From the IMG/VR virus record IMGVR_UViG_3300020583_000224, positions 32,001 to 96,000 of that record: DNA of 64,000 bases. The stretch is one strand, 5' to 3'. Position 1 is the first letter of the stretch. Every line of letters begins with the position of its first letter. Source of the DNA: a virus. The translations under genes and the position numbers were made by a program. The notes under the pieces were generated by a model. The model made no database searches. It was not told the DNA's origin and was given only the letters and a program-made list of their open reading frames with translations. Positions 10,409-52,343 of the stretch are shown here, in pieces.

Positions 10409-11705
10409 CCGACCTGCCGTTCGACCCCGGCGCCCGGAAGCGTGTCGCCGCGTTCCTTGCAGCCCATGCAGCGCGCAGTGCCGACTATCCGTCAGCCACG
10501 CGTCCCGCCACGAAGCGGCTCGCCACCGTCAGCGCGCCCGGCTCGGATGTCGAGCACGTCTTGACCGACGACGACCTGGACGAGGTTCTGCGCCAGTTGG
10601 CGGACGCGAAGGACCGGGCCGAGATGCTCGCGGAGGCGAGCGCCGTGCACCGCGGGACGATCGACGACCTCGAAGAAGCGCTCGTCGAGGCGCGCGAGGC
10701 CCGAGACGTCTGGCTCGACACGGCGATGAAGCTCAAGGATCGCTGCGCCGATGCTCAGGCCGGGCGCAAGGCGGCCGCGACGGAACTCGCCGCGCTGAAG
10801 GCGACGCGCCCGTGCGGCCGGTCGGCGACGCATCCGCCGCACATGTGGATGAGCGCGCGGCGCGGGGTTCAGTGCGCGGGCTTCGGCGAGTGCGACGTTG
10901 CGCCTGCCGTGGCTGTGGAGCCCGCCCCGAAGCCAGCGCATGCCCCGACCCCGAACGGTCTGCTCTGCACGTGCGGCGAGCCGTTCGGGCACGACGAGCC
11001 GCTGGGTGATCTCGATGTCTGACCTGGACCTGCTCGCCGCGTCCCTCAATGACACGACCCGGCATTTGGCCGAGCACATTCAGCGGCGCGCGGAGGAGAT
11101 CGCTGATCCGCAGATCCTCGCGGTCCGGCTGGACGCGAAGGACAAGATCGACCGGTTGCGCAGCGACCACAAGTTTGAGAACCAGCGGAAGGACGACCTG
11201 ATCCGGGAGTTGCGGCGGCAGTTGGATGCGGCTGTCCGCTCCGTTGAGCGCCTGCATACCGAGGTCAAGGAGACCCGCGGAGCCGTGCGCCGTGTCGAGG
11301 TGCTGCATGTGTGGACGAACGAGGACGGCAAGAAGTTCGTGTTCGCCGACGAGTTGTGGACCGCGCTTGCCGAGGCGGGCAGTCCGGCCGCACGGGCGCT
11401 CGCGGAGATCCAGCAGCGGAGGGCCGACGCCGATGCCTGAGCCGTCCATCCAGTTCGCCACGATATTCAGGGGCCTGATCCGGTTCTTCGTCCCGGTCGT
11501 GCTCGCCACCGCGGGGGCCGGGTTCGCCGCCCGCGCGATTTACCACAACACGTCGGCGCAGGCCGTGCTCCTGGTCGTCGCCGGGACTGTCGCGGGCGCG
11601 ATCCTCGGCGCGATCTGGGTGATCAAGCACGTCGAGCAGGACCCCCGGGCCACCGACCGCGAGCAGTGCAACGTACCCGAAACCACCACCAACGAAGGGA
11701 ACTGA
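10405..11705 (+). other. hypothetical genes (10405-11022, 11015-11440 coiled-coil; 11433-11705 two-TM)
   Basis: Coupled ORFs. Confidence 0.65.
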
Positions 11706-11707
11706 CC

Positions 11708-12088
11708 GTGTCCGCAGACAACTCCTGGTCGGGCCGCGTCACTATCACGCCGCCGTTGACTTGGCAGGAGTGCAAGGTCTCGCCCGGCGTCGAGGACGTG
11801 AAACTCGACATCCACGAGGAAGACGGGCCCGACGGCCGCATCCTGACTGCCGTAGCCGTGGTTCCCGCGCGCCGGAGCGACTCGTGGTCGGCGCATACCG
11901 GGCAGGAGCTTCAGTTCCTCATCGACTCGCATCCGGGCCACGAGTTCGACGGCTACCTGAGGGTCGACTGGAAGCCCGTGTACGGCGACGGCCAGGTGCT
12001 CGCTGAGCGCTGGACGGTCGTCGAGCGCACGGTCGTGCACGAGGTGGGGCGGCTGGCCTGGGAGCTCGACGGCGGGGACGGTGCCTGA
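11708..12088 (+). CDS. DUF6205-like actinophage protein
   Basis: G.VTITPPLTWQE...DVKL...AVAVVP...LQFLID.H..HEF.GYL pattern recalled from the family. Confidence 0.5.
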   Translation: MSADNSWSGRVTITPPLTWQECKVSPGVEDVKLDIHEEDGPDGRILTAVAVVPARRSDSWSAHTGQELQFLIDSHPGHEFDGYLRVDWKPVYGDGQVLAERWTVVERTVVHEVGRLAWELDGGDGA

Positions 12089-20877: not shown

Positions 20878-21386
20878 GCCGCGATTCGCTGCAACACGAC
20901 GGTCGGCGGGTCCTCGGCATGGCTGGCCACTGACGCGGCGCCGATCGACAGCGACGCCCACACCCGCTTGCCGTGACCGACGGGTTCCGTACCCCAATCG
21001 GCTGCGAGCGCGTCCACGAGCAGCAGGCCGCGACCGCCCAGTTCGTCGTCGGTGGCTTCGCGCTGCTCGGGCATGTGCTCGCCTCCGTCCTCGACCTCGA
21101 TGAACAGCAGTCCGCCATCCGCCTCACGGTCCGTGTAGATGGCGAGCAGCGCGGGCTCGTCACCGTGCTCCACAGCGTTCGTCACCAGTTCGGACATGAT
21201 GATGTCCGCCGAGTCGGCGAGATACCCCAAGCCCCATTCGGCGAGCGCGTCGTCAAGGATCCGACGGGCCTGCCGCGGCGCCGTCAACGTCAACGCCAGG
21301 CCGGTCGTGCGGCGTTCGCTGATCGTGCCGTGCTCGCCCGTGATGATGTGCATCCCGGCGTTCGGCGAGGAGTAGTAGCGGCTCAC
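20874..21386 (-). CDS. HATPase_c (RsbW/AbaA-like anti-sigma) ATP-binding protein
   Basis: SELVTNAVEHG N-box, EVEDGG, GGRGLLLVDALAADWG...GKRVW. Confidence 0.92.
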   Translation of the reverse strand: MSRYYSSPNAGMHIITGEHGTISERRTTGLALTLTAPRQARRILDDALAEWGLGYLADSADIIMSELVTNAVEHGDEPALLAIYTDREADGGLLFIEVEDGGEHMPEQREATDDELGGRGLLLVDALAADWGTEPVGHGKRVWASLSIGAASVASHAEDPPTVVLQRIAA

Positions 21387-21637
21387 CGGGTCGCCGCCGC
21401 GAGTAACTCGGTGACACGTGCGATGTCGTCTCGGACAAGCGGCGCGACCAGGCCGCCCGTGGACGGGTCCGCGTCGGCGAGGAGCACGGTCTGCAACGCC
21501 GCGAGGGCGGTGCACGCTATTTCGCGGCAGAGTTCCGCAGTGTCGCTGCCGAGGCTGAACGTACGCAGGCGTTCGGATGCGTCGGCCAGGTCCCGCCGCA
21601 GGTTCGTGTAGCCGGGCGGGGCTTGGGTCGCGCGCAT
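21383..21637 (-). CDS. hypothetical protein
   Basis: GTGA-coupled to the ATPase gene. Confidence 0.55.
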   Translation of the reverse strand: MRATQAPPGYTNLRRDLADASERLRTFSLGSDTAELCREIACTALAALQTVLLADADPSTGGLVAPLVRDDIARVTELLAAATR

Positions 21638-21844
21638 GGCGTCTCGTTTCGGCTGGCTGCTGTTGTTCCTTCGAGGAAACCGCTTGATCGGTGATGCGGC
21701 AATCGTTGGAGAAGCCCGCGCGTGTGTGAATCAGGGTGTGCGAATCGGCGCCCTGTGTATCGATGCAGTGAATCGGCTGTCGACGTGCAGGTCGGGCGCT
21801 TAGACTCCCGTGCATAAGGCCCCGGCTGAGGGAGTGTCAGCGTC

Positions 21845-23206
21845 ATGGCGCACAGCACGGCACCGAACGAGAAGCTAGCGGCGGTCCTCGTCGAAACGGG
21901 GTTCAGCGCGGCCGGTCTCGCCCGGCGCGTGAAGGATCTCGCCAAGCACGAAGGCAAGCCGGCGCCGCATGCCGACCACACCTCCGTCGCCCGCTGGCTC
22001 GCCGGGCAGCGCCCCCGTGCAGCTACGGCCTCTCTGATCGCCGGGGTGTTCACGCAGGCGCTCGGCCGCCGCATCACCGAAACCGACCTCGGATTCGCCG
22101 CGGCGCCGCCGGACCCGGACGCGGCACTCACCTACCAACCCGACCTCGCGGCGACCCTGGCGGCGAGCACCGACCTGACCGGGAGCGACACGCACGTGCA
22201 CCGACGTAGGTTCCTGACTGCCGCTGCGGCGACCGCGACCGTGTTCGCGGTGCCCGCGATCCGCTACCTGACGGCTCCCGACGCGCCGCCGCCCGTGCAG
22301 GCGGCCGGGCGCACGGTGGGCATGGAGGAGGCCGCGGCGGTACGTGTCGTCACCAACACTTTCCGCAAGCTCGACAACCAGTTCGGCGGCGCCCACGGCC
22401 GCACCTCGATCGTCGCCTACCTGCGGGACGAGGCGATGCCGCTGCTCAAGCACGGCTCGTATACGGCAGTCGTGGGGGCGGCCCTGTTCAGCGCCGTGTC
22501 GGAACTGATGCTGCTCGCCGGGTGGATGGCGTTCGACCTCGAACAGCATCCGGTGGCGATGCGCTATCTGATCCAGGCGCTCAAGCTGTCCGAGGTCGCG
22601 GGGGACAGACCGCTCGGCGCGGAGATCCTGAACGGCATGTCGCATCAGGCCGCGTACCTCCGCCAAGGCGCGGAGGCGGTCGATATGGCGCGTGCGGCGG
22701 CGCAGGTGGCACGCAGGGCCGGGCAGCCTGTCCTGGTGGCTGAGTCGCTCGCGTCGGAGGCTGGCGGGCATGCTCTGGCCGCCGCGCCCCGCTCGGCTGC
22801 GGTGGCGCTCCTCGGCGCGGAGGATGCGCTCGCCAAGGCGGACCGGGTGCAGGCGCCGGACTGGCTCGGGTTCTTCGACGAGAAGTACCTGCACGCCCGC
22901 ACCGGCCGCGTCCTGCTCGACGCCAAAGACCCGAAGGCCGCAGCGAACGCGATGACTGCGGCGCTCGTGATGAAACCCGGCTTCGACCGGGGCAAGGTGT
23001 TCAACCTCGCGGTGCTCGCCCAAGCCCAGGTGCACGCCGGGGACGTGGATCGCGGCTGCGTGACCGCGGCAACTGCAGCGAAGGCTGCTGCGACGGTGAA
23101 CTCGAAGCGCGCTGTGCGCGAGCTCGCGGCCGTCGCCCGGAGCCTCGAGCCGTACCGGTCCTCGGAGCCGGCACGGAACGCGCTCGCGCTGCTGCCCGCT
23201 ATTTGA
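21845..23206 (+). CDS. NsdA-like HTH + TPR transcriptional regulator
   Basis: PNEKLAAVL...GLARRV...DHTSVARWLAGQRPR N-domain; RRRFL; DNQFGGAHGR; AGWMAFD; helical repeats. Confidence 0.85.
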   Translation: MAHSTAPNEKLAAVLVETGFSAAGLARRVKDLAKHEGKPAPHADHTSVARWLAGQRPRAATASLIAGVFTQALGRRITETDLGFAAAPPDPDAALTYQPDLAATLAASTDLTGSDTHVHRRRFLTAAAATATVFAVPAIRYLTAPDAPPPVQAAGRTVGMEEAAAVRVVTNTFRKLDNQFGGAHGRTSIVAYLRDEAMPLLKHGSYTAVVGAALFSAVSELMLLAGWMAFDLEQHPVAMRYLIQALKLSEVAGDRPLGAEILNGMSHQAAYLRQGAEAVDMARAAAQVARRAGQPVLVAESLASEAGGHALAAAPRSAAVALLGAEDALAKADRVQAPDWLGFFDEKYLHARTGRVLLDAKDPKAAANAMTAALVMKPGFDRGKVFNLAVLAQAQVHAGDVDRGCVTAATAAKAAATVNSKRAVRELAAVARSLEPYRSSEPARNALALLPAI

Positions 23207-23753
23207 CCCCCAGCCGGTCGCGCGCGGCCAGTAGGCCGACGACTGAGGCCGCCCCGAGCACGGTGCCCAGGATGAGCGCGGGAACGTCGGAGAGCGGCAT
23301 CCAGCGGGTTTCCTGCGTCTCGTTGATGTCGAGCACGTCCGAGACCTTCACGGGGCCCTGGCCGAGGTAGACGTGGTTGAGCGCATCGGCGTTCCCGGTC
23401 ATCGGCTGGAACGAGCAGAGGCACTCGACGCGGCTGGGCCGCCAGCCGGTTTCTTCCTCGGCTTCGCGAGCGGCGCACTCGGCGGGGTCTTCGCCTTCGT
23501 CCACATATCCACCGGGCAGTTCCCAGACCCACAGGCTGGGGATGAACCTATGGCGCCGGAGCATCAGCGCTCGCTGCTGGTCGTCCACGAGGACGCACAT
23601 CGCGGCCGGCGCGACACGCAGCACGGCCTGTTCGAACTCGACGCCGTCCGGCAACGTCACGTGGGCGATCGACAGGGCGGTGCGCTTCGTGGTCGCGAGG
23701 GTCGGCAGGTCGAGGGGGCGTTCTTCGACGGTCCAGCGGGTGTCGTTGGTCAC
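23199..23753 (-). CDS. NUDIX hydrolase
   Basis: Nudix box WELPGGYVDEGEDPAECAAREAEEETGW. Confidence 0.95.
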   Translation of the reverse strand: MTNDTRWTVEERPLDLPTLATTKRTALSIAHVTLPDGVEFEQAVLRVAPAAMCVLVDDQQRALMLRRHRFIPSLWVWELPGGYVDEGEDPAECAAREAEEETGWRPSRVECLCSFQPMTGNADALNHVYLGQGPVKVSDVLDINETQETRWMPLSDVPALILGTVLGAASVVGLLAARDRLGVK

Positions 23754-23786
23754 CCGCCGAACCTTAGCGAACCGCGCCAGGCGCGA

Positions 23787-23936
23787 TCAGAGGGACGAGT
23801 TGAACGCGGCCACGACGACCTTGGCACCGGTCGGCCGCAGTCGGTCGAGGATCCCGGGCGCGGCGACGCGGCCGAGCGGGGCAGTACGCACGTCGGTGAG
23901 CGTGGATGTCATGACGGTGTCGGCGGGCTCGTTCAC
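23787..23936 (-). CDS. FxSxx-COOH RiPP precursor-like peptide (49 aa)
   Basis: AGGAGA RBS then GTG; MNEPADTVMTSTLTDVRTAPLGRVAAPGILDRLRPTGAKVVVAAFNSSL-stop, with terminal F-N-S-S-L. Confidence 0.8.
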   Translation of the reverse strand: MNEPADTVMTSTLTDVRTAPLGRVAAPGILDRLRPTGAKVVVAAFNSSL

Positions 23937-23999
23937 GGGGTCTCCTGGCTGGTTCGGGCCGGCGCTGCTTAACGCCAAGGATACGGCCATCGGTGCTGG

Positions 24000-24428
24000 T
24001 TACGTGCGGTTTCTGGTCTGCCACCCCTCGTCGCGGGTCCAGACGGCGCGCTTGCCATACGGCGCCAGCAGTTGCTCCAGGATGTCATCCGCGACCTGCC
24101 TAGCGTCCGGGGAATAGACGCCGGAATCGATCTTCTGCCATAGCGCGAGCAGCGCACGCTTGGCCGCGACGTCGGCGAACACGAACCCAGGATCGTTCGC
24201 AACGACATGGTTGGCGATCGCATCGCCGAGGAAGCCATGCGGGCCGACGGCGAGAGTCGCCTCCTCGCAGGAGACGTACTCGCCGTCGACGCTGCGCCAG
24301 TGCGTACCGTCCACGTCGTGGCGGGGCCTGGCGTCGGCCGCAGCGGCTACAGCGAGCAGTTGGCGGTCGTCCAGGCGCGCGGTGATGAACGCGACGATGC
24401 TGGGTGGTTCGACGGGAGAAGTCGTCAT
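24000..24428 (-). CDS. DUF6221-family protein (second copy)
   Basis: IVAFITARLDD...HVVANDPGFVFADVAAKRALL...LLAPY. Confidence 0.8.
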   Translation of the reverse strand: MTTSPVEPPSIVAFITARLDDRQLLAVAAAADARPRHDVDGTHWRSVDGEYVSCEEATLAVGPHGFLGDAIANHVVANDPGFVFADVAAKRALLALWQKIDSGVYSPDARQVADDILEQLLAPYGKRAVWTRDEGWQTRNRT

Positions 24429-27400
24429 GGCCGCAGTGTCCCACCGTGCGCGTCCAGCCTGTCCGCGATAGCCCGCGCGGTCCGCAGGTCGATGCAGACG
24501 GTCGTGTCGTCCCGGGCGCCGCGGCACTTCTCCTGCACGTACGCGACGAACGCGGCGACATCGTCCTCCTCGCGGCAGTCGCATTCGGGATGGTTGCAGT
24601 ACCAGCCGCCAGCGGTGTCGCGTTCTTCGACGGTCTCGAGGATGAGCGGCTGCGTGACGAAACTGACCGTCTGCGCCTCAACCAGTGCGGCGGCCACGGC
24701 GTTCATCGGGCACGCCTCGGTGCAGTCGCTCTCGAGGTGCGGTTCCTGGCCGATCGCGAAATGGTAGAGGCCCGTGACGGGCGCGGTGAAGCGCTCAGGC
24801 ATCGCCGGTCCTTTGCGGTTCGCTGTCGGGGTACGCGAGGGCGGCCAGCCAGTCGTCGGCCATCAGCCCCGCATGGAGCCCGGCTTCGGGCGTCGGTCGC
24901 CCAGCGTCCGGGCCGTACGTGGCGATCAGGTCGACGATCGGGCCCGTGTCGAACAGCGGGTGGTCCGCGGGGATCGGGCCGATAGCTACCGGGCGGTAAG
25001 GCGACGCGTCGTCAGGCACGGGGCGACTCGATTCTGAGAGTCAGGGATTCCTGGCGTTCGAACGCTTCGCGTGCCCAGTGTCCCCGCTCGCGTTCGCCGC
25101 GGCGCGCTTCGATCAGTTCTTGCACGTACTCCTCGACACGATGGGCGCCGTGGATGTGCTCGTGGATCTCGCCGCCCGGGTGCCCGAACGCTTCGATGGC
25201 GATATCCGGGTAGCGCGAGAACGCGGCCCTGCACTCGCTCTCGGTGCCCTCGTAGGTCCAGACGCATGTCCGGAGCGGGCACTGCCATTGGAACCGGTCG
25301 TCAGGCATCAGCGTGCTCCTTCGCCGCGGTCTCGGACTCGTGGCACGGCGCGCAGATCGGCATTGACCGCGTCCCGCCCGACGGCAGCTTGTAGACGAGC
25401 CGCGTCGTGGCGCGGGCCTGGCAGCGGTGATCAGGATCGGCGCCGCAGATATGGGCGCACGTGTCGCCCTGGCTCGGCCAGTTCGCGTCCGATTCGCTGA
25501 GCGGGTCGCCCCAATCCAGTTGGCCTACGCTCGCGCCGTATTCCGCCCGAGACGGCGACGGGTACACCGCCCTGTCCATGCTGGCGATAATGCCGTCGAA
25601 TCCGGGGCGCCGGTTCGCTTCGTCGAGGATGCCCTCCATCGCGGCATAGTCGGCGAACGACACGCCCGCGGTCGCTGTGCGCAGCCACAAGATCGCGGCC
25701 TCGACGTGTGCCGAAGCCAGCGCCCGCAACTCCTCGTATCGGCGCGACGGCACGAACTCGGTCCGCCACCCGCACGGGCAATGACCGCGGATCTCCCGGG
25801 TGGCCTCGTCCATCTGCATGTGGTCCGCGCATTGGAGCGCTGGCCCGCTGCCGGTTTCGAGGACCCGGATCGGCTGGTCGTCTGCAGGGTCGGCTGGCCA
25901 GAGGATCGTGCCTGCGGGCATCAGGTCGGGGTGTTCGAGCAGCGCGGCGCGGACATGACACCGCAGCAGTATTTCGTCGGGTTCGGCGCCCTCGGACCAG
26001 CCTATGCGGCGCCTGAAGTGCGCGGGCTCGCCCCTGCTGCGTGTCGGCAGGGTGATGCCGTACTCGGTTATCCGGTACAGGATCGACTGGAGGGGCGTCC
26101 AATTGCCGAGGTCTAGCGGCGATATGCAGACGACGGCCTCGAGCGGCTTCGCGACGTGCCAGGCGGTGGCGAGCTCGTCCGTGTAGATGACCTGCCCGGC
26201 GGAAGGTCCGTCGACCAGGATCACGGGAACGCCGACCGGCCTAGGCATGTCCGGCCGCCCTCGGGTGATCCGGATGCAGCCGAGGCCAATACTGCGACAC
26301 GGGGATGCCGTGGCCGCGCAGGTGCGACTGGGTCAGCGTCATCACCTCGGCGACCGTGCCGCCCATGTGCAGGCCGCCGCACGAGCAGTCGATGCCGAAC
26401 AGCACCGGCTCGCTGGACGCGAGGCTGCGGAAGTCGAGGTGCGGGGTGACGGTGAGCGTGTGGTTGCGGCACTCACGGCGGATCGCGTCTTCATCGGTGA
26501 GCAGGTCAGGCATCGTCACTCCGTCGGCGGCGGTAGGAGTTGGTCCAGCGTGGGCACCACGATCGGCTCGACCCGCCATCCTTCGGCCGCGAGCAGGTCG
26601 AGGAACAGGCCCGCGCCGTGATCGCTGGAGATGACGCCGTGAAGGCGCCGGTTCCAATCGTCCAGCACGCACGCGACCGTGTACGCGGGGCCGTCGAGTT
26701 CCGCAAGGTCGCTGCGACGGAGGGCGTCGAGGTCTTCGTGCTCGTCCTCACTCATTGCCGCCGCCTTCCGTTCCTGCGCTGTCGAGCGTGTCGTTGCTGA
26801 TCCAGCTATACCCGCAACGACCGCAGCCCCGGTGGAAGTGATTCCGATCCTGCCCGGAGCACATTCCATGACGGAGGCTGTAGCCGCCGTCACACCAGCG
26901 CATCGTCGTGTCGGACTCGCCGCACTTCGGGCACGCCAGGATCGGCACGCGCGGCGGGGTGTCCTGTGGTTCTTGGGTCGCCATGCCGAGTCCGGGTCGG
27001 AGCAGCACTTCGGGGACAGACAGTTCGCTTACCGTCGTGTCGCCAGACACGTAGCCGCCCTTGGTCTTACCGTCGCCCATCGCCGTCTCCGATCGGTTCG
27101 AGTTCGATGGTCGCCTCAAGGGGCCTGTCCGACCAGGCGGCGAGAAGGGTGTGCAGAACAGCACCCCGTTCGGCCTCCCGGGTCTCTCCGTCCACGTAGT
27201 TGCCTGTGGCGTCGTACCACTTCACGACCGCTCGCACTCGGGCGTCGCGCGTATCGCCACCCCCGCGCTTGACCACGGCCGTGCGGCCTGTGGCCAGGTC
27301 GAGGACGCCGATGTTGTCTGCGCTGACCGCGAAAGCCGTGCTGGGCGGTACGCGGTTGTCCTCGTGGATCAGGCGCGCCCATTCGGGACCAGCCTCGGCC

Positions 27401-28856: not shown

Positions 28857-29270
28857 GTGAGCGACAGCGGCAGCATGCGAGGCGGCCGGGAGGTGCGGCC
28901 GTTCATCGAATCGATCTCCGGCCCGATGCCCGACACCGCCGAGTACAGTGCGATCAAGAACGGGCGCGAACGGCAGTCCAAGTCGTTCCCCGGCGCCGGC
29001 AGCGTCCGGTTCGTCGCCTACCTGTGGCGGGAGATCCAGAAGTACGCGATCATCCGGTCGCTCGAAACCGGCTTCGACGTTCCGAAACAGCACCGGCGGT
29101 TCGTCGTGGAAGGCTTCGAGGACTACGAGACCGCAGTGTCCAACTACGGGCTGGCCGTCGGCTGGCTTGTCGAACTCGTCGAACTGCACGGGCACGGCCT
29201 GTTCGATGAGGAGACGCTCGCGCAGATGGTCGACTCGCTGACGCCCGATGCTGAGGCCGATCCGCGTTAG
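28857..29270 (+). CDS. hypothetical protein, lone rightward gene
   Basis: GGAGGAG RBS, TAGCGT -10-like box upstream. Confidence 0.6.
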   Translation: MSDSGSMRGGREVRPFIESISGPMPDTAEYSAIKNGRERQSKSFPGAGSVRFVAYLWREIQKYAIIRSLETGFDVPKQHRRFVVEGFEDYETAVSNYGLAVGWLVELVELHGHGLFDEETLAQMVDSLTPDAEADPR

Positions 29271-29479
29271 GCCTGCTCGCCGCCGATGTGGTCGAAGTCC
29301 ATGCCGCGCATGCCCGCGCGGAAAGTCGCCCACTCGTCTCGGTCGAACGTGAGCACCGGTCCGTCCGGGTCCTTGCTGTCGCGGATCAGCACGAGCCCGC
29401 CGTGCTCGCCAACCTCGACGCAAGTGGCATTGTTGGGGCACCTCGCGGCCTTGGCCCAGCGAATCTCACTCATCGTCAT
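29267..29479 (-). CDS. DUF397 (BldB-like) protein
   Basis: W.KA..C.NN.TCVEV...VLIRDSKDPDGPVLTFDRDEW.TF..G. Confidence 0.93.
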   Translation of the reverse strand: MTMSEIRWAKAARCPNNATCVEVGEHGGLVLIRDSKDPDGPVLTFDRDEWATFRAGMRGMDFDHIGGEQA

Positions 29480-30240
29480 CTTCCTGTCCGTTGGCTTCGC
29501 GTACCGCCCGGTGGGTAGCCCGCGGTACGTCAATCGCGGCGCAGTGCTTGAGCCGGAACTGTTCGGCAGTCTCCCAGTCGAGACCTTCGGCGTCCTGCCG
29601 TTTCGCGTCGATCAACATGACGAGGGCGTCGCGGACCGCGTCCAACTGCACGGGACTGAGGCCGATCAAGTCGAACGTCGCCGGATTGTGGCGCGCATAG
29701 AGCACTCAACACCTCCAGGTCTGGGTCAATGCTAGAGGTTCGGTACGGCGAGCAGACCTTTTCAGTTGGAAGGTGCCGCGAGCCTGAGGATCCCGGCGGC
29801 CGCCTGCTCGATCTCGGCGGGAGTCGCGCCGGGCGCGGTGGTGATCTGCTCCATGGCGTCGAGGAACTGCCAGCGCGCGGTCAGTGCCCGGGTGAACGCG
29901 AGACTGTCGGCCACCGGTTCGTCGCCCGCGTCGCGTGCCTCGTTGTTGACGCGGGCGATCTCGGCCAGGCCGCTGGCCAACTCGTCGAACCACGGCGGGT
30001 CCGTGGAATCAGTGGATCTCACGGGGCGTCCAGGGCGTTCCTGAGGTCCGCGGCGATCGTGCGCGGGTCGACGCCGGTCGTAGCGAAGCTCTCACGCCAC
30101 ACGTTGACCGCAGTCTCGAACAGCTCGGCGGAACCGGCCAGGCTGTACGCCTCGCGCCAGGTCGCGGCCGGAATGCCGGTCTCCTGGCTGAGGGCGCCCA
30201 TCTGAATGTCGGTGACGGCCTCGGTGTTGCTGCGGGTCAT
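29466..30240 (-). other. hypothetical genes (29466-29705, 29762-30022, 30019-30240)
   Basis: Coupled small ORFs. Confidence 0.55.
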
Positions 30241-49080: not shown

Positions 49081-50127
49081 ATGGACGGCGAGACCCCCAC
49101 CACCCCGGCGCCCCCCACGCCGCTCGGGGGATGGTGGATCGCGGCCGTCGCCGTGATCGGCACGATGGCCGCGCTCATCGCGATCGGCGGCATGATCCTG
49201 TCTTTCCGCGCCGTCTCCCAAGAGATGACCCCTGCGTTCGGCACCCAGTGGGCATGGCTCGTACCCGTCGTCATCGACCTGTCCGTGTTCGTGTTCTCCG
49301 GCGTCGACCTCGTCCTGAACCGGCTCCGCATGAACCACCCGCTCGCCCGGTTCACCGTGTACGGTGCGACGTTCGGAACCGTCTGGCTGAACTACTCCGC
49401 CGGCGGTTCGGTCGCTGGCCGAACCGCCCACATCCTCATGCCGAGCATCTGGGTCGTGTTCGTCGAACTCATGCGGCACGTGGTTCGGCGGCTAACCGGC
49501 CTGGCCGACGGATCCCTGCGCGAACCCGTCCCGACGGTTCGATGGATCCTCGCCCCGTGGCGAACCGTGAACCTCTGGCGGCGCATGGTCCTGTGGGGCA
49601 CGAACTCCTACCCGAAGGCCCTCGCGCAGGAGAAGGGGCGCCTGGCCGCTATCGCGGTTCTGCGAACCGAACACGGGCCGTTCTGGCGCTGGCGCGTCGC
49701 GCCACTGGTTCGCCTGCAGCTCAGTCTTGGCGAACCCGTTCAGGCTCCCGAACTTGCTGCGGCCGAACCTGCCGAACCGGACCGCGAGGCCGAACCGGAG
49801 ACCCCGAACCTTCCCGCAGTTCCGAACCGAACCACCGCCGCCGGTCGCGCCGAACGTTCTGCGCCGCGCCGAACCAGCCCGCGCCCGAACGGTTCCGGGA
49901 GCGTCTCCCCGCTCATGTCGCGACCCGAACGCGTCGAGATCATCCGGCAGTGGATCGACCAGGCGGGCGGCCTCGAGGCCGTGCCGCTCAGCCGAATCAT
50001 GACCGAATTCGGGTGCGCCAAGTCCACCGCCTCCGGCCTGCGCGCCGAGGCAGATCCCAGCCCTGCAACCCAAAGCGCGACGACGCCTAACGAAGACGAC
50101 GAAGCTGATCGAGAGGACGCCGCCTGA
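49081..50127 (+). CDS. DUF2637-like (Spd-type) membrane protein with C-terminal HTH
   Basis: LSF.AV...AWLVPVVID..., TVWLN...HILMP...ELMRH, RWILAPWRT.NLWRRMVLW; C-terminal LSRIMTEFGCAKSTAS. Confidence 0.8.
   Translation: MDGETPTTPAPPTPLGGWWIAAVAVIGTMAALIAIGGMILSFRAVSQEMTPAFGTQWAWLVPVVIDLSVFVFSGVDLVLNRLRMNHPLARFTVYGATFGTVWLNYSAGGSVAGRTAHILMPSIWVVFVELMRHVVRRLTGLADGSLREPVPTVRWILAPWRTVNLWRRMVLWGTNSYPKALAQEKGRLAAIAVLRTEHGPFWRWRVAPLVRLQLSLGEPVQAPELAAAEPAEPDREAEPETPNLPAVPNRTTAAGRAERSAPRRTSPRPNGSGSVSPLMSRPERVEIIRQWIDQAGGLEAVPLSRIMTEFGCAKSTASGLRAEADPSPATQSATTPNEDDEADREDAA
49370..49932. repeat. about 20 (C)CGAAC/GTTCG repeats inside the DUF2637-like gene, candidate clt
   Basis: Dense from 49731 to 49932 (49731, 49748, 49763, 49772, 49790, 49804, 49822 twice, 49850, 49869, 49885, 49925), in more than one reading frame. 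Confidence 0.75.
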
Positions 50128-52343
50128 TGGCACGACACGACACGACACGCGGCTACCTCGAGGCTCAGCCGCTCCAAATTCCCGATAGCGCCCAGCAATC
50201 CACCCTTCCCGTCGCGTGGCATGGCGCGCCTCCGGCCGTCACGCAACATGGAGAACTCGCAGCTCAGGCGCCGAATCAGGCTGCTCCGCAGTCGTACTAC
50301 TCGGTCAGTCCGGGCCAGATCCTCCCACACGCGCAGGCCCACGACCTCCCCTGGCACATGGCCGGACTGCTCGACCACGAACTGCCCCGCCCGAAGCCCG
50401 AATGGGTCAAACTCCTCAACGACTACCACGTGCCCGGGGTCGCCGGGACGCTCGTGTTCACGGCGTTCGGGTGGATGGCGCACAAGGAGCCGATGCACCC
50501 GTGGATGGCCGGGCTGTTCATCGGCGTGGGCGTCACCGGGCTCGTCGGCGCCTGGTGGGCGCACCACGAGCACGGCCAGGACGCGGACCCGCACTTCACC
50601 AAGGGCCTGGCGGGTCTTGGCGTTGCCGCCATCTGCGGCGGTGCCGCCGTTGGCGCCGGGCCCACGGGGATCTCGTTCATGCTGGCGTTCGCGCTGGCGG
50701 TCGGCGCCGTCGTCGGCGTTCACCAGTACCGCGAGCACAAGCGCCACGTGAAGGCGGTGACGGCAGTCGAGTTCCACGCTGCCGTCAACCAGGGGAAGGT
50801 TCACGTGGTCGGCCCCGGGCCGGCGGCGGCAACGTCGAACATTGTGGACGGTCGGGTGCTATCCCAGGAGGAGGCGCTGCTGCACCGGGCGTTCGCGGAC
50901 ATGGGCATCGAGCCGATCACGCTGCGCGGGTTCGAGCGCCTCGACAAGGACGCGTTCAACGTGATCGTCGGACTGCCGGGTACTTCCACGAACGACCCGG
51001 AGACGGTGATCGGCAAGCGGGAGGTGCTCAAGTCGAACCTGCGCGCCCGGCAGATCGCGGTGGAGGCGAGCTCCGAGCACGGCCACGAGATCAAGCTCAT
51101 GGTGCGCTACGGCGCGACCAACCCGCTGCTCGAGACCATCGCCTGGAAGGGCCCCAACACCGACGACGTCGCCGAGCCGATCAGGACCAGCGTCGATTTG
51201 CACGGCGACGAAGTCATGGTGCGATTCGCCAACCGGCACACCCTCTACGCGGGTAAGACCCGGCGCGGAAAGTCGGCCGGCATCGCCTCGGCCATTTGCT
51301 CAATCGGCGCCACGAAGAATGCTCAGCTCTGGCTAATGGATTTGAAGCCGGGTCAGGTCTCGCTCGGCCCGTTCGCCGCGATGGCGGCCCAGTCGGTCGA
51401 GGGCAGGAACCAGCAGGAGTGCGTGGAAAGGGCGTCCCTGATGATTCTCGCCGCCGTCGCGGCGATGGAGGAGAACGGGCAAATCCTCAAGGACGAGCGG
51501 GAGTCGACCGGGAAGCCGGTGTACGAGTGGGATGTCAACAGGCACGGCGCGGCGATCGTCCTGGTCATCGACGAGCTTGCCTACCTGCTGCGGCTGGACC
51601 CGGAGATCTACGAGGGCTGGGTTACGATCATGCAGGTCGGGGCGGGCCTCGGCGTGTGGGTGATCGGCGCTACGCAGTCTCCGTCGGCGAAGGCCCTCGG
51701 CGGCACCACTGACGGCTCCAGTCAGTTCGGCAACGTGTTCTGCTACCAGTGCAAGGGCGCGACCCAGGCCGGGATCATCCTGGGCCAGGGGTCGTGGAGT
51801 GAGGGTTGGAAGCCGAACGAGCGGAACCTGCCGCTGCAGGGCATGCACCTGCTGCGCACCCCGGAGCACATCCACCCCGTGGTCATGCGGAACGAGTTCG
51901 TCGAGCCGGGCGACGCGATGGACATTGCCGACCGGTACGCCGACTCCATTCCGGCGCTGCATCCGCGGACGGCGGCGGCGGTCGATCGCGTACTGAACAT
52001 GGGGCTGCCGACGAAGAGCGGGCCGGGCCCTGGTCGCGGCGGGAAGCCGTCCGGGCCCGTCGACAGCGAGATCGTGTACACGCGCCCGTATCTCGTGCCG
52101 GAGTATCCCGACGGCGACGTGGTCGAGGCGCACCACCGCGCGGCGTGGGAGGCCTTCAAGGAGATGGGTTCGGCAACGATCGACGAGCTCAAGGCACTCC
52201 GACTCGACCAGCACCGTTCACGCGAGTCGTGCAAGACCGCCTTGCAGGTGTTCGTCAGGCACGGCGGCGCGACCTCAGAGATGGACGGCCGTACCGAGCG
52301 ATTCCACTGCCTTGTCGGTTCCGAGCGCCGCAAGGAGGCGTGA
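50127..52343 (+). CDS. traB: TraB-like FtsK/SpoIIIE conjugative DNA translocase
   Basis: N-terminal TM helices; Walker A GKTRRGKS; DLK; Walker B VLVIDE; ATQ; C-terminal wHTH-like region; TGATG-coupled to the DUF2637-like gene. Confidence 0.85.
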   Translation: MARHDTTRGYLEAQPLQIPDSAQQSTLPVAWHGAPPAVTQHGELAAQAPNQAAPQSYYSVSPGQILPHAQAHDLPWHMAGLLDHELPRPKPEWVKLLNDYHVPGVAGTLVFTAFGWMAHKEPMHPWMAGLFIGVGVTGLVGAWWAHHEHGQDADPHFTKGLAGLGVAAICGGAAVGAGPTGISFMLAFALAVGAVVGVHQYREHKRHVKAVTAVEFHAAVNQGKVHVVGPGPAAATSNIVDGRVLSQEEALLHRAFADMGIEPITLRGFERLDKDAFNVIVGLPGTSTNDPETVIGKREVLKSNLRARQIAVEASSEHGHEIKLMVRYGATNPLLETIAWKGPNTDDVAEPIRTSVDLHGDEVMVRFANRHTLYAGKTRRGKSAGIASAICSIGATKNAQLWLMDLKPGQVSLGPFAAMAAQSVEGRNQQECVERASLMILAAVAAMEENGQILKDERESTGKPVYEWDVNRHGAAIVLVIDELAYLLRLDPEIYEGWVTIMQVGAGLGVWVIGATQSPSAKALGGTTDGSSQFGNVFCYQCKGATQAGIILGQGSWSEGWKPNERNLPLQGMHLLRTPEHIHPVVMRNEFVEPGDAMDIADRYADSIPALHPRTAAAVDRVLNMGLPTKSGPGPGRGGKPSGPVDSEIVYTRPYLVPEYPDGDVVEAHHRAAWEAFKEMGSATIDELKALRLDQHRSRESCKTALQVFVRHGGATSEMDGRTERFHCLVGSERRKEA

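What the first reader, a model, noticed from the sequence alone, without database searches (positions are those of the whole stretch)
23787..23936. Orphan FxSxx-COOH RiPP precursor-like peptide on a phage: candidate decoy or hijacker of a host peptide-modifying conflict system
Seen: a 49-codon ORF with an AGGAGA RBS ending VVVAAFNSSL-stop, with a leader-like L.D.R..PL....L.RL pattern, between a DUF6221-like gene and a NUDIX gene. No radical SAM, HEXXH, TIR or NB-ARC/TPR gene is recognisable in the 64 kb. Known: actinobacterial FxSxx-COOH peptides are normally encoded beside FxsB radical SAM/SPASM enzymes, which crosslink the F-x-S motif into a cyclophane, and beside HEXXH, TIR-like FxsC and STAND/TPR proteins. 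These loci have been proposed to be conflict or defence systems. Inference: the phage carries only the substrate, either to titrate or jam host FxsB/STAND signalling (anti-defence mimic) or to have the host mature a phage signalling peptide.
Basis: partly seen in the sequence, partly recalled or inferred. Interest (0 to 1): 0.82.

Follow-up and report, generated by a model that had tools for sequence, protein, structure and literature searches.

The report
Phage-borne orphan FxsA peptide precursor
A 123-kb soil actinomycete phage carries a stand-alone copy of a small peptide gene that bacteria keep beside a ring-forming enzyme in a predicted suicide-type immune locus, so the phage probably has the host enzyme mature a look-alike peptide.

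Summary
A 49-codon ORF (window 23787-23936, minus strand, AGGAGA-N4-GTG) lies between a DUF6221 gene and a NUDIX gene in a complete, integrase-bearing 122.7-kb phage record.

It is a true FxsA (FxSxx-COOH) homolog. It is 65-81% identical to peptides lying directly upstream of FxsB radical SAM genes: 8 of 8 strong genome hits and 6 of 7 metagenome loci. One such locus was verified as FxsA, FxsB-HExxH, FxsC and FxSxx-TPR. Its TIGR04268 score (17.7 bits) is under the 28-bit cut-off, but so are three FxsB-adjacent controls (17.4-21.5).

The phage has no FxsB, FxsC, HExxH or FxSxx-TPR gene. Seven more IMG/VR phage records carry 11 further FxsA-like genes, some in tandem. None of the 8 records has FxsB.

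New here: in 4 of 9 orphan contexts the peptide lies within 1.5 kb of a highly divergent NsdA-family HTH/TPR-like regulator, in a different arrangement each time.

Best reading: the host FxsB matures the phage peptide into a mimic of the host Fxs peptide, to steer or silence the FxsC/FxsT TIR-ParA system. The purpose is untested.

This scan has found the same phenomenon on other DNA (27 notes, at least 22 genomes). I found no paper describing it.

The parts
23787..23936 (-). FxsA-like (FxSxx-COOH family) precursor peptide gene: 49 codons plus stop. Leader motif D-V-R-x-A-P-L ... L-D-R-L-R-P; core ...AKVVVAAFNSSL.
   Evidence: (TIGR04268 17.7 bits, the only hit).
23941..23946 (-). Shine-Dalgarno AGGAGA, 4 nt before the GTG start.
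   Evidence: AGGAGAC plus GTG is conserved in L007.
23781..24013 (-). 234-nt mobile block: about 78 nt of upstream leader, the peptide ORF and the stop. It is 83.8% identical to metagenome contig L007, whose flanks are unrelated.
   Evidence: blastn; alignment A2. The upstream part differs from the conserved upstream region of FxsB-linked copies.
23199..23753 (-). NUDIX hydrolase gene, 33 nt downstream of the peptide gene on the same strand, probably co-transcribed.
   Evidence: PF00293, 81.3 bits. A 75%-identical homolog sits convergent to the NsdA-like gene in phage record G408.
21845..23206 (+). NsdA-family HTH/TPR-like regulator, convergent with NUDIX and overlapping it by 8 nt. It is the only NsdA-family match in the 122.7-kb record.
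   Evidence: (NF053720, 378.7 bits), (homologs down to 32% identity, some named Actinocrinis MAG proteins).
24000..24584 (-). DUF6221 gene upstream on the same strand. The true start is probably internal to the listed ORF.
   Evidence: PF19730, 49.2 bits, residues 62-180.

Best explanation
The ORF is an intact, phage-borne member of the FxsA precursor lineage. It was captured from an actinomycete host, probably Actinospica/Actinocrinis-like, and now travels as a small cassette with its own ribosome-binding site and upstream leader. The phage encodes no maturase. The peptide keeps both the leader residues and the C-terminal core that FxsB-linked copies keep. It is therefore most likely translated in the infected or lysogenic cell and cross-linked at the C-terminal F-N-S by the host's FxsB (fused to an HExxH hydroxylase domain in the one locus scanned). 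The product would match, or closely resemble, the host's own Fxs peptide. By supplying that peptide under phage control, the phage would steer the host FxsC/FxsT TIR-ParA locus. The options are to keep it silent (antitoxin-mimic or decoy logic), to pre-empt its peptide signal, or to swamp it. Shown: gene anatomy, homology, orphan status, recurrence in phages, and presence of FxsB in most genomes of the likely host order. Inferred: translation, maturation by host FxsB, and the effect on the Fxs system.
For: (1) Homology. In an Actinospica MAG, a peptide 65% identical lies directly upstream of FxsB with an HExxH domain (TIGR04269, 522.7 bits; TIGR04267, 161 bits). FxsC (NF040588 157.5, TIGR04276 133.6) and FxSxx_TPR (957 bits) follow. 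(2) In 201 genomes of that order, all 8 strong peptide hits have FxsB about 200-350 nt downstream. One of them, G042, is an unpublished genome; without it the count is 7 of 7. Six of 7 metagenome loci show the same by reading the translations; L009 duplicates L006. The best such match, L008b, is 81% identical over 43 residues. (3) The host core in L006 is identical to the phage core over the last 12 residues. D15, L21, R32 and V42-F45 are invariant in all 19 phage-borne and host-linked rows of A4. Both the recognition part and the substrate part are thus retained. (4) No FxsB, FxsC, HExxH or FxSxx_TPR in the record. (5) Recurrence. IMG/VR records G202 (3 tandem genes), G203 (2), G204, G205, G206, G207 and G408 also carry FxsA-like genes. 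FxsB is found in 0 of 8 records including this one, four of which CheckV rates at 98-100% complete. (6) The phage copy has its own upstream block, shared with L007 and different from the conserved upstream region of FxsB-linked copies. (7) FxsB is above its cut-off in 125 of 201 genomes of the order. The genome with the closest portal (65% identity, G052) has FxsB with its own FxsA. (8) Passages of preprint 10.64898/2026.10.19.760177 read FxsC as an active NAD+-degrading TIR and FxsT as a ParA switch. They read the FxsAB peptide as a possible antiviral molecule or diffusible alarm.
Against: There is no evidence of transcription, translation or modification. The host is unknown. The one phage-type pair with DNA available (phage vs L007) gives dN/dS 0.90 from 21 differences, so purifying selection within the phage lineage is not shown. 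Phage vs host-linked copies give 0.26-0.40, but those values include host branches. The TIGR04268 score is below its cut-off. The function of Fxs loci is itself only predicted. A phage carrying an alarm or antiviral peptide could equally be helping its lysogen. With FxsB in 62% of the order's genomes, finding it in G052 is weak support. Four of 9 contexts have an adjacent NsdA-family regulator, which points to a phage-internal partner rather than, or besides, the host system.
Confidence: 0.45

Rival explanations
1. Phage-owned signalling or eavesdropping circuit. The peptide, matured by host FxsB or not, is the ligand of the neighbouring NsdA-family HTH/TPR-like regulator. This would work like peptide/HTH-TPR pairs such as arbitrium AimP-AimR (recalled from knowledge). 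The regulator would then set lysis-lysogeny, transfer or counter-defence genes according to the peptide level, possibly also sensing the host's own Fxs peptide.
For: An NsdA-family gene lies within 1.5 kb of the peptide in 4 of 9 orphan contexts. In G000 it is convergent, 0.58 kb away. In L007 it is 183 nt downstream on the same strand (NF053720, 84.6 bits, over the cut-off). In G204 it is 187 nt downstream (24.1 bits, E 2e-5). In G408 the peptide lies 1.4 kb upstream of a 51%-identical NsdA-like gene. In G000 and G204 this is the only NsdA-family match in 122.7 and 132.8 kb. The arrangement differs each time. The L007 regulator shows no BLASTP similarity to the G000 one, although the peptide cassettes are 84% identical in DNA. 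This suggests more than inherited synteny.
Against: Five of 9 contexts (G202, G203, G205, G206, G207) have no NsdA-family match in the record. From the regulator's side, only 1 of 18 viral NsdA-like loci has an FxsA-like gene within 5 kb. G000, G204 and G408 are related phages, so the cases are not independent. The peptide has no N-terminal hydrophobic signal sequence (by reading). The regulator profile shows no similarity to FxsT (hhalign probability 0.1%). Morons often sit near regulators, so adjacency could reflect shared expression in lysogeny.
Confidence: 0.2
2. Lysogenic conversion. The prophage adds extra or variant FxsA substrates so that its lysogen makes more, or different, Fxs peptides. 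This would benefit the host and prophage against other phages or competitors.
For: The phage has an integrase. In the 40-kb record G205 the peptide ends a rightward block that begins with a gene I read as an integrase (not scanned against any family), just before the convergent tail genes and a gene I read as an endolysin. That is a typical moron position. Tandem, diverged copies in G202 (cores FQSSI, FNSSL, FNASL) and G203 look like repertoire expansion. The preprint passages allow an antiviral role for the peptide. A bioRxiv listing (10.1101/2024.06.26.600839, title and abstract only) reports lanthipeptides with anti-phage function.
Against: No expression data in lysogens. No prophage-borne copy was found in the 201 genomes searched, where all 8 strong hits were FxsB-linked. 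The host already encodes the same core.
Confidence: 0.15
3. Neutral passenger. This would be a recently captured host fragment with no function in the phage.
For: dN/dS of 0.90 between the phage copy and L007. The gene is short. No expression evidence exists.
Against: All six phage-type sequence variants keep the frame, the stop position and the core. Twelve intact FxsA-like genes lie in 8 viral records spanning several size classes (40-202 kb) with mostly unrelated neighbouring genes; five of them (G000, G203, G204, G207, G408) share some homologs. The gene has a strong SD and a conserved private upstream block. Tandem duplication occurs in two phages.
Confidence: 0.08
4. The peptide acts unmodified and independently of Fxs, for example as a small regulatory or inhibitory protein of the adjacent NUDIX or DUF6221 products.
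For: It sits 33 nt upstream of the NUDIX gene, probably in one transcript.
Against: NUDIX and DUF6221 adjacency is not seen in the other 8 orphan contexts. In G408 the homologous NUDIX is separated from the peptide by the regulator. Retention of the FxsA leader and core across phages argues for use of the Fxs machinery.
Confidence: 0.07

Closest known systems
FxsA / FxSxx-COOH precursors with the FxsB (MscB) radical SAM/SPASM cyclophane synthase (NCBIfam TIGR04268, TIGR04269; SjiA family NF040585)
   Same: Small size. Leader D-x-R-x-x-P-L ... L-x-R-[LIV]. C-terminal V-A-A-F-N-S-S-L-COOH. 65-81% identity to FxsB-adjacent copies. A review passage (PMC11002830, section 16) states that MscB links Phe C4 to Ser C-beta, i.e. 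the F-x-S triad present here.
   Different: No FxsB, HExxH, FxsC or FxsT gene in the same replicon. The gene is carried by a phage and has its own upstream region. It scores below the curated HMM cut-off. Many relatives have Ala in place of the motif Ser.
TIR-ParA 'apoptosis' systems (FxsC/FxsT) as read in preprint 10.64898/2026.10.19.760177 (passages seen)
   Same: The host loci holding the closest relatives have exactly this composition. This is the system the phage peptide would touch.
   Different: The phage carries none of the TIR or ParA components. The passages I read do not mention phage-borne FxsA. I could not see the supplementary figures.
Phage-encoded antitoxin mimics, such as pseudo-ToxI RNA of phage PhiTE and T4 Dmd
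   Same: The logic: a phage carries only the small neutralising or regulating component of a host suicide-type system. It is sometimes amplified in tandem, as in G202 and G203.
   Different: Here the component is a RiPP precursor that would need a host enzyme. No antitoxin role of FxsA has been shown.
Arbitrium AimP-AimR and other peptide/HTH-TPR (RRNPP) pairs (recalled from knowledge)
   Same: A short phage peptide gene next to an HTH/TPR-like regulator in 4 of 9 contexts.
   Different: The regulator is NsdA-family, not RRNPP. The peptide has no signal sequence. It is homologous to a radical-SAM-modified RiPP. In two contexts the peptide gene lies upstream of the regulator. Five contexts have no such regulator.

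Membership tests
FxsA / FxSxx-COOH precursor (TIGR04268) | Short peptide ending F-x-S-x-x-COOH | tested here: met
   Ends F-N-S-S-L then stop. Relatives end FNSSL, FNSAL or FNASL.
FxsA / FxSxx-COOH precursor (TIGR04268) | Score at or above the curated cut-off of the family HMM (28 bits) | tested here: not met
   17.7 bits, E 0.0032, the only family hit. The same failure is seen in FxsB-adjacent controls: L006 21.5, L008b 19.4, L008a 17.4 bits. The cut-off therefore does not separate this subfamily.
FxsA / FxSxx-COOH precursor (TIGR04268) | Sequence homology to peptides encoded directly beside FxsB | tested here: met
   65% identity to the L006 peptide and 81% to L008b. FxsB lies downstream in 8 of 8 genome hits and 6 of 7 metagenome loci.
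Fxs system (complete locus) | Precursor encoded next to FxsB, with FxsC and FxsT | tested here: not met
   TIGR04269, NF040588, TIGR04267 and NF040586 gave no match in the 122,712-bp record. It is an orphan, not a locus member.
FxsA / FxSxx-COOH precursor (TIGR04268) | Phe-to-Ser cyclophane installed by FxsB | not testable with these tools
   Needs co-expression and mass spectrometry. The chemistry is known for MscB (review passage).
Peptide/HTH-TPR quorum pairs (RRNPP, arbitrium) | Adjacent HTH-TPR receptor gene | tested here: inconclusive
   An NsdA-family HTH/TPR-like gene is adjacent in 4 of 9 contexts. Pfam gives only weak TPR hits. No RRNPP model was tested.
Peptide/HTH-TPR quorum pairs (RRNPP, arbitrium) | Pro-peptide with an N-terminal secretion signal | tested here: not met
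   By reading the sequence: the N-terminus is polar or acidic with no hydrophobic stretch. No signal-peptide predictor was available.

The most novel reading that the evidence does not exclude
Large temperate actinophages run a peptide circuit that borrows the host's radical SAM maturase. The phage-encoded FxsA is cross-linked by host FxsB, and the phage's own NsdA-family HTH/TPR-like regulator reads it. The phage could then both imitate and listen to the alarm peptide of the host's TIR-ParA suicide system, and decide between lysis, lysogeny or transfer. This would be an actinomycete counterpart of arbitrium built on a hijacked RiPP pathway.
Probability: 0.15. Interest if true: 0.9.

Novelty: new variant of a known kind. 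Interest (0 to 1): 0.72.

Why it matters
Fxs loci are present in 125 of 201 genomes of this actinomycete order, yet their biology is unknown. Only the ring-forming chemistry of one enzyme and a comparative-genomics prediction of a TIR-ParA suicide system are in print.

Phages that repeatedly carry only the peptide are natural experiments. They suggest that the peptide is the lever phages use on the system. They also give a direct handle for testing what the Fxs peptide does: express the phage copy in an fxs+ host and look at maturation, TIR activity and phage plating.

It would also be the first case, as far as my searches reach, of a virus depending on a host RiPP maturase for one of its own gene products. 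The link to NsdA-family regulators suggests a ligand class for a large family of Streptomyces regulators with no known signal.

Tried and rejected
Cultured phages: tblastn of three phage-borne peptides against 50,697 GenBank phage records gave nothing credible. One search gave 9 records, all E 0.7 or more, in coliphages, Microviridae and one Xylophilus phage. Searches gave no match. No cultivable example was found. BLAST's low-complexity filter may hide some.

Local DNA: blastn of window 21000-27000 against the same collection gave no match.

Tree: a tree of 25 peptides was unresolved, with 19 of 22 inner branches open. I make no claim on the number or direction of captures beyond pairwise identities.

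Promoters: the sigma-70 consensus scan found 0 sites around the gene. This is uninformative for actinomycete promoters.

FxsT-like sensor idea: the NsdA-like profile compared with FxsT gave probability 0.1%. Rejected.

Pairwise BLASTP among the three NsdA-like neighbours showed only HTH-level similarity. Their family assignment rests on NF053720.

Complex prediction (regulator alignment A5 with peptide alignment A3): no verdict, score 0.00. This is not evidence either way.

The look-up of sequencing runs: no RNA holder listed. The two full holders may be the source samples.

Papers: the search for SjiA/SjiB returned only arthritis papers. PMC11118758 (passages only) does not treat phage-encoded precursors. 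PMC12912966 (abstract, sections 5 and 11) describes an ADP-ribosylated triceptide. I considered a link to the NUDIX gene and dropped it, because that cluster is not Fxs-type and NUDIX adjacency is not conserved. Supplementary figures of the preprint may show Fxs neighbourhoods that bear on phage copies.

Full report
THE GENE. On the minus strand of the window, AGGAGA (23941-23946) is followed after 4 nt by GTG (23936-23934). An open frame of 49 codons ends ...VVVAAFNSSL with a stop at 23789-23787. A longer 67-codon form from ATG 23990 is unlikely. Its extra codons include several that are rare at this G+C content (my reading). The ATG reads ACG in the nearest DNA relative, while AGGAGAC and GTG are kept. 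The gene lies between a DUF6221 gene (PF19730) and a NUDIX gene (PF00293) that starts 33 nt downstream on the same strand. An NsdA-family HTH/TPR-like regulator (NF053720, 378.7 bits) converges on the NUDIX gene and overlaps it by 8 nt.

THE ELEMENT. The window is bases 32001-96000 of a 122,712-bp IMG/VR virus record rated 100% complete, with 68.5% G+C. PHROG hits give a tail-spike-like protein at bases 19-2025 and an integrase at 10440-11954. They also give a DnaB helicase, an FtsK/SpoIIIE-like protein, a portal at 101530-104757 and a tape-measure protein at 115839-119585. Tail genes at both ends mean the record is a circular permutation (inference). The peptide gene is therefore inside the phage, not in a host flank. 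A second assembly of 122,642 bp encodes the same peptide (P0002).

IS IT AN FxsA? TIGR04268 is the only NCBIfam hit, at 17.7 bits against a cut-off of 28. Homology settles what the HMM leaves open. A scan of one genome per species found one relative, in an Actinospica MAG. It is a 50-aa peptide, 65% identical, with the same last 12 residues. It lies about 210 nt upstream of a 793-aa protein that scores 522.7 bits on TIGR04269 (FxsB) and 161 bits on the HExxH hydroxylase domain. An AAC(3)-like gene, FxsC (both domains) and the FxSxx-COOH system TPR protein (957 bits) follow. That bona fide FxsA scores only 21.5 bits, and two more FxsB-adjacent peptides score 19.4 and 17.4. The curated cut-off therefore misses this whole subfamily.

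A profile of 12 peptides was searched in 201 genomes of the same order. It found 8 strong matches, all with an FxsB homolog (48-100% identical to the verified one) about 200-350 nt downstream. One of the eight, G042, is an unpublished genome. Of 7 metagenome loci, 6 have the FxsB N-terminus directly downstream, one of them after two tandem peptide genes. I read this from translations, and L009 is the same sequence as L006. The closest FxsB-linked peptide, L008b, is 81% identical to the phage peptide over 43 residues. Across 19 phage-borne and host-linked peptides, D15, L21, R32 and V42-A-A-F45 are invariant. The motif Ser is not strict: 8 of 13 distinct FxsB-linked peptides end FNASL. For the one characterised enzyme of this family, MscB, a review passage states a Phe C4 to Ser C-beta link (PMC11002830, section 16).

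ORPHAN STATUS AND RECURRENCE. FxsB, the FxsC N-terminal domain, the HExxH domain and FxSxx_TPR all give no match in the whole record. A degenerate DNA pattern for the C-terminal codons, a profile scan and a scan from the regulator's side together found seven more IMG/VR records with FxsA-like genes:
- G202: 119.8 kb, terminal repeats, 100% complete, three tandem genes.
- G203: 45.8 kb, 37% complete, two tandem genes.
- G204: 132.8 kb, 89% complete.
- G205: 40 kb, 87% complete.
- G206: 63.6 kb, 63% complete.
- G207: 202 kb, 98% complete.
- G408: 128.8 kb, 100% complete.

None has FxsB, so the count is 0 of 8 records including this one. The seven of these peptides that I scanned (those of G202-G205) hit TIGR04268 as best or second-best family, at 10.8-27.4 bits. 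G203, G204, G207 and G408 share other homologs with this phage. G202, G205 and G206 share few such homologs with it or none listed. The phage-type clade (this phage, L007, P0003-P0006) is 77-88% identical internally.

A MOBILE CASSETTE. The phage and metagenome contig L007 share 83.8% nucleotide identity over just 234 nt: about 78 nt upstream, the ORF and the stop. Their flanks are unrelated. FxsB-linked copies share a different upstream region with an inverted repeat. The phage copy is therefore expressed from its own signals.

SELECTION. Nei-Gojobori dN/dS is 0.26-0.40 between the phage and host-linked copies and 0.39-0.43 among host-linked copies. It is 0.90 between the phage and L007, based on 6.5 synonymous and 14.5 non-synonymous differences, most of them in the N-terminal part. 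Purifying selection inside the phage lineage is therefore not demonstrated by this test. The case for function rests on intact frames, the conserved leader and core in 12 genes of 8 records, and tandem duplication.

HOST. Homologs of the regulator include proteins named as Actinocrinis MAG proteins (53% identity). The nearest FxsB-linked peptide in a genome is from Actinospica. A portal search in 401 genomes of the order found 7 matches, the best at 65% identity in G052. G052 has FxsB above the cut-off, with its own divergent FxsA. Because FxsB is above the cut-off in 125 of 201 genomes of the order, this is only weak support. It does show that a phage of these bacteria will usually meet an Fxs system.

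THE REGULATOR LINK. The 430-aa gene 183 nt downstream of the L007 peptide is NsdA-family (84.6 bits, over the cut-off). The 408-aa gene 187 nt downstream of the G204 peptide gives a weak NsdA-family hit (24.1 bits, E 2e-5). In G408 the peptide lies 1.4 kb upstream of a 51%-identical NsdA-like gene. That gene is again convergent with a NUDIX gene, 75% identical to this phage's. In G000 and G204 these are the only NsdA-family matches in the records. The other five records searched have none.

Four of nine orphan contexts therefore have this neighbour, in four different arrangements. The L007 and G000 regulators are not detectably similar by BLASTP, although their peptide cassettes are near-identical. 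Against a tight coupling, only 1 of 18 viral NsdA-like loci has the peptide within 5 kb. Three of the four phage cases are related phages, and morons tend to sit near regulators.

WHAT IT MOST LIKELY DOES. The phage keeps the leader and the core but no enzyme. The cores match host cores, and hosts of this order commonly have FxsB. The most economical reading is that the host FxsB matures the phage peptide into a copy of the host's Fxs peptide.

Passages of a 2026 preprint (10.64898/2026.10.19.760177) read FxsC as an active NAD+-degrading TIR. They read FxsT as a ParA-based switch of a suicide-type system that is enriched in multicellular bacteria. They suggest that the FxsAB peptide is an antiviral molecule or an alarm for neighbouring cells. 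A phage that makes this peptide itself could keep the system quiet, blunt the alarm, use it as its own signal, or arm its lysogen. I rank these at 0.45 for steering or silencing the host system, 0.2 for a phage circuit with the NsdA-like regulator, and 0.15 for lysogenic conversion. A neutral passenger and an Fxs-independent role are both below 0.1. None has been tested.

KNOWN OR NEW. Full-text searches returned no paper describing a phage-borne FxsA or any virus relying on a host RiPP maturase. The searches covered FxsA/FxsB/FxsC/FxSxx-COOH and triceptide/cyclophane/FxsB. They also covered RiPP precursor with phage genome and anti-defense and MscA/MscB/triceptide. Subscription journals and supplements were not covered.

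Within this scan the same phenomenon has been noted 27 times in at least 22 genomes, and other follow-up agents have confirmed it on other phages. Their three-tandem-copy, 120-kb phage is probably my G202.
- The direct link to verified fxs loci at up to 81% identity.
- The 0-of-8 FxsB count.
- The 234-nt cassette.
- The base rate of FxsB in the host order.
- The recurrent NsdA-family neighbour.

Noticed in passing
L008:910-1000, L010:1040-1130, L011:1950-2040, L006:9900-9990 (alignment A2, columns 1-100): FxsB-linked fxsA genes share a conserved upstream region with an inverted repeat (GATCATTGG ... TCAGTGATC) and a GAGAGGAG ribosome-binding site. The phage and L007 copies lack it. It may be an operator or RNA element controlling host fxsA.
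   Followed up: no
window 21845-23753; L059 5001-6900: The convergent NsdA-like/NUDIX gene pair is conserved between this phage and record G408 (NUDIX 75% identical, regulator 51%), while the peptide sits on opposite sides of the pair. This phage also has an FtsK/TraB-like gene (window 50127-52343).
   Followed up: partly
L035 9501-10069; L036 9692-10236: Tandem arrays of diverged FxsA-like genes in phages. G202 has three, with cores FQSSI, FNSSL and FNASL. G203 has two, with long N-terminal extensions (96 and 75 aa) that share a start motif.
   Followed up: partly
L006 12737-13522: An AAC(3)-like N-acetyltransferase gene (NF033082, 125 bits, below the cut-off) sits between FxsB-HExxH and FxsC in the Actinospica-type fxs locus. 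It is also present in L008. It may be a further peptide-modifying step.
   Followed up: no
L049 (G052:C200) upstream of FxsB: A divergent FxsA ends ...VAASFNSAV next to FxsB in the genome with the closest portal homolog. The G408 phage peptide ends similarly (...VASFNSAL). This hints at host-matched cores.
   Followed up: no
window 29267-29533; L037 6075-6428: A DUF397/BldB-like small gene (my reading of the sequence; 33% identity between the two phages) lies in the same leftward block of small genes, together with several HTH genes.
   Followed up: no
G000 101530-104757 (L004 5530-8757): The 1075-aa portal protein carries extra C-terminal regions that hit RNA-ligase-like and minor-head/protease PHROGs. 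This is an unusually long fusion.
   Followed up: no
order of G001: FxsB-family genes are above the cut-off in 125 of 201 genomes, with up to 4 copies per genome. There are two size classes, about 400-560 aa and about 720-990 aa, the latter presumably the HExxH fusions.
   Followed up: no
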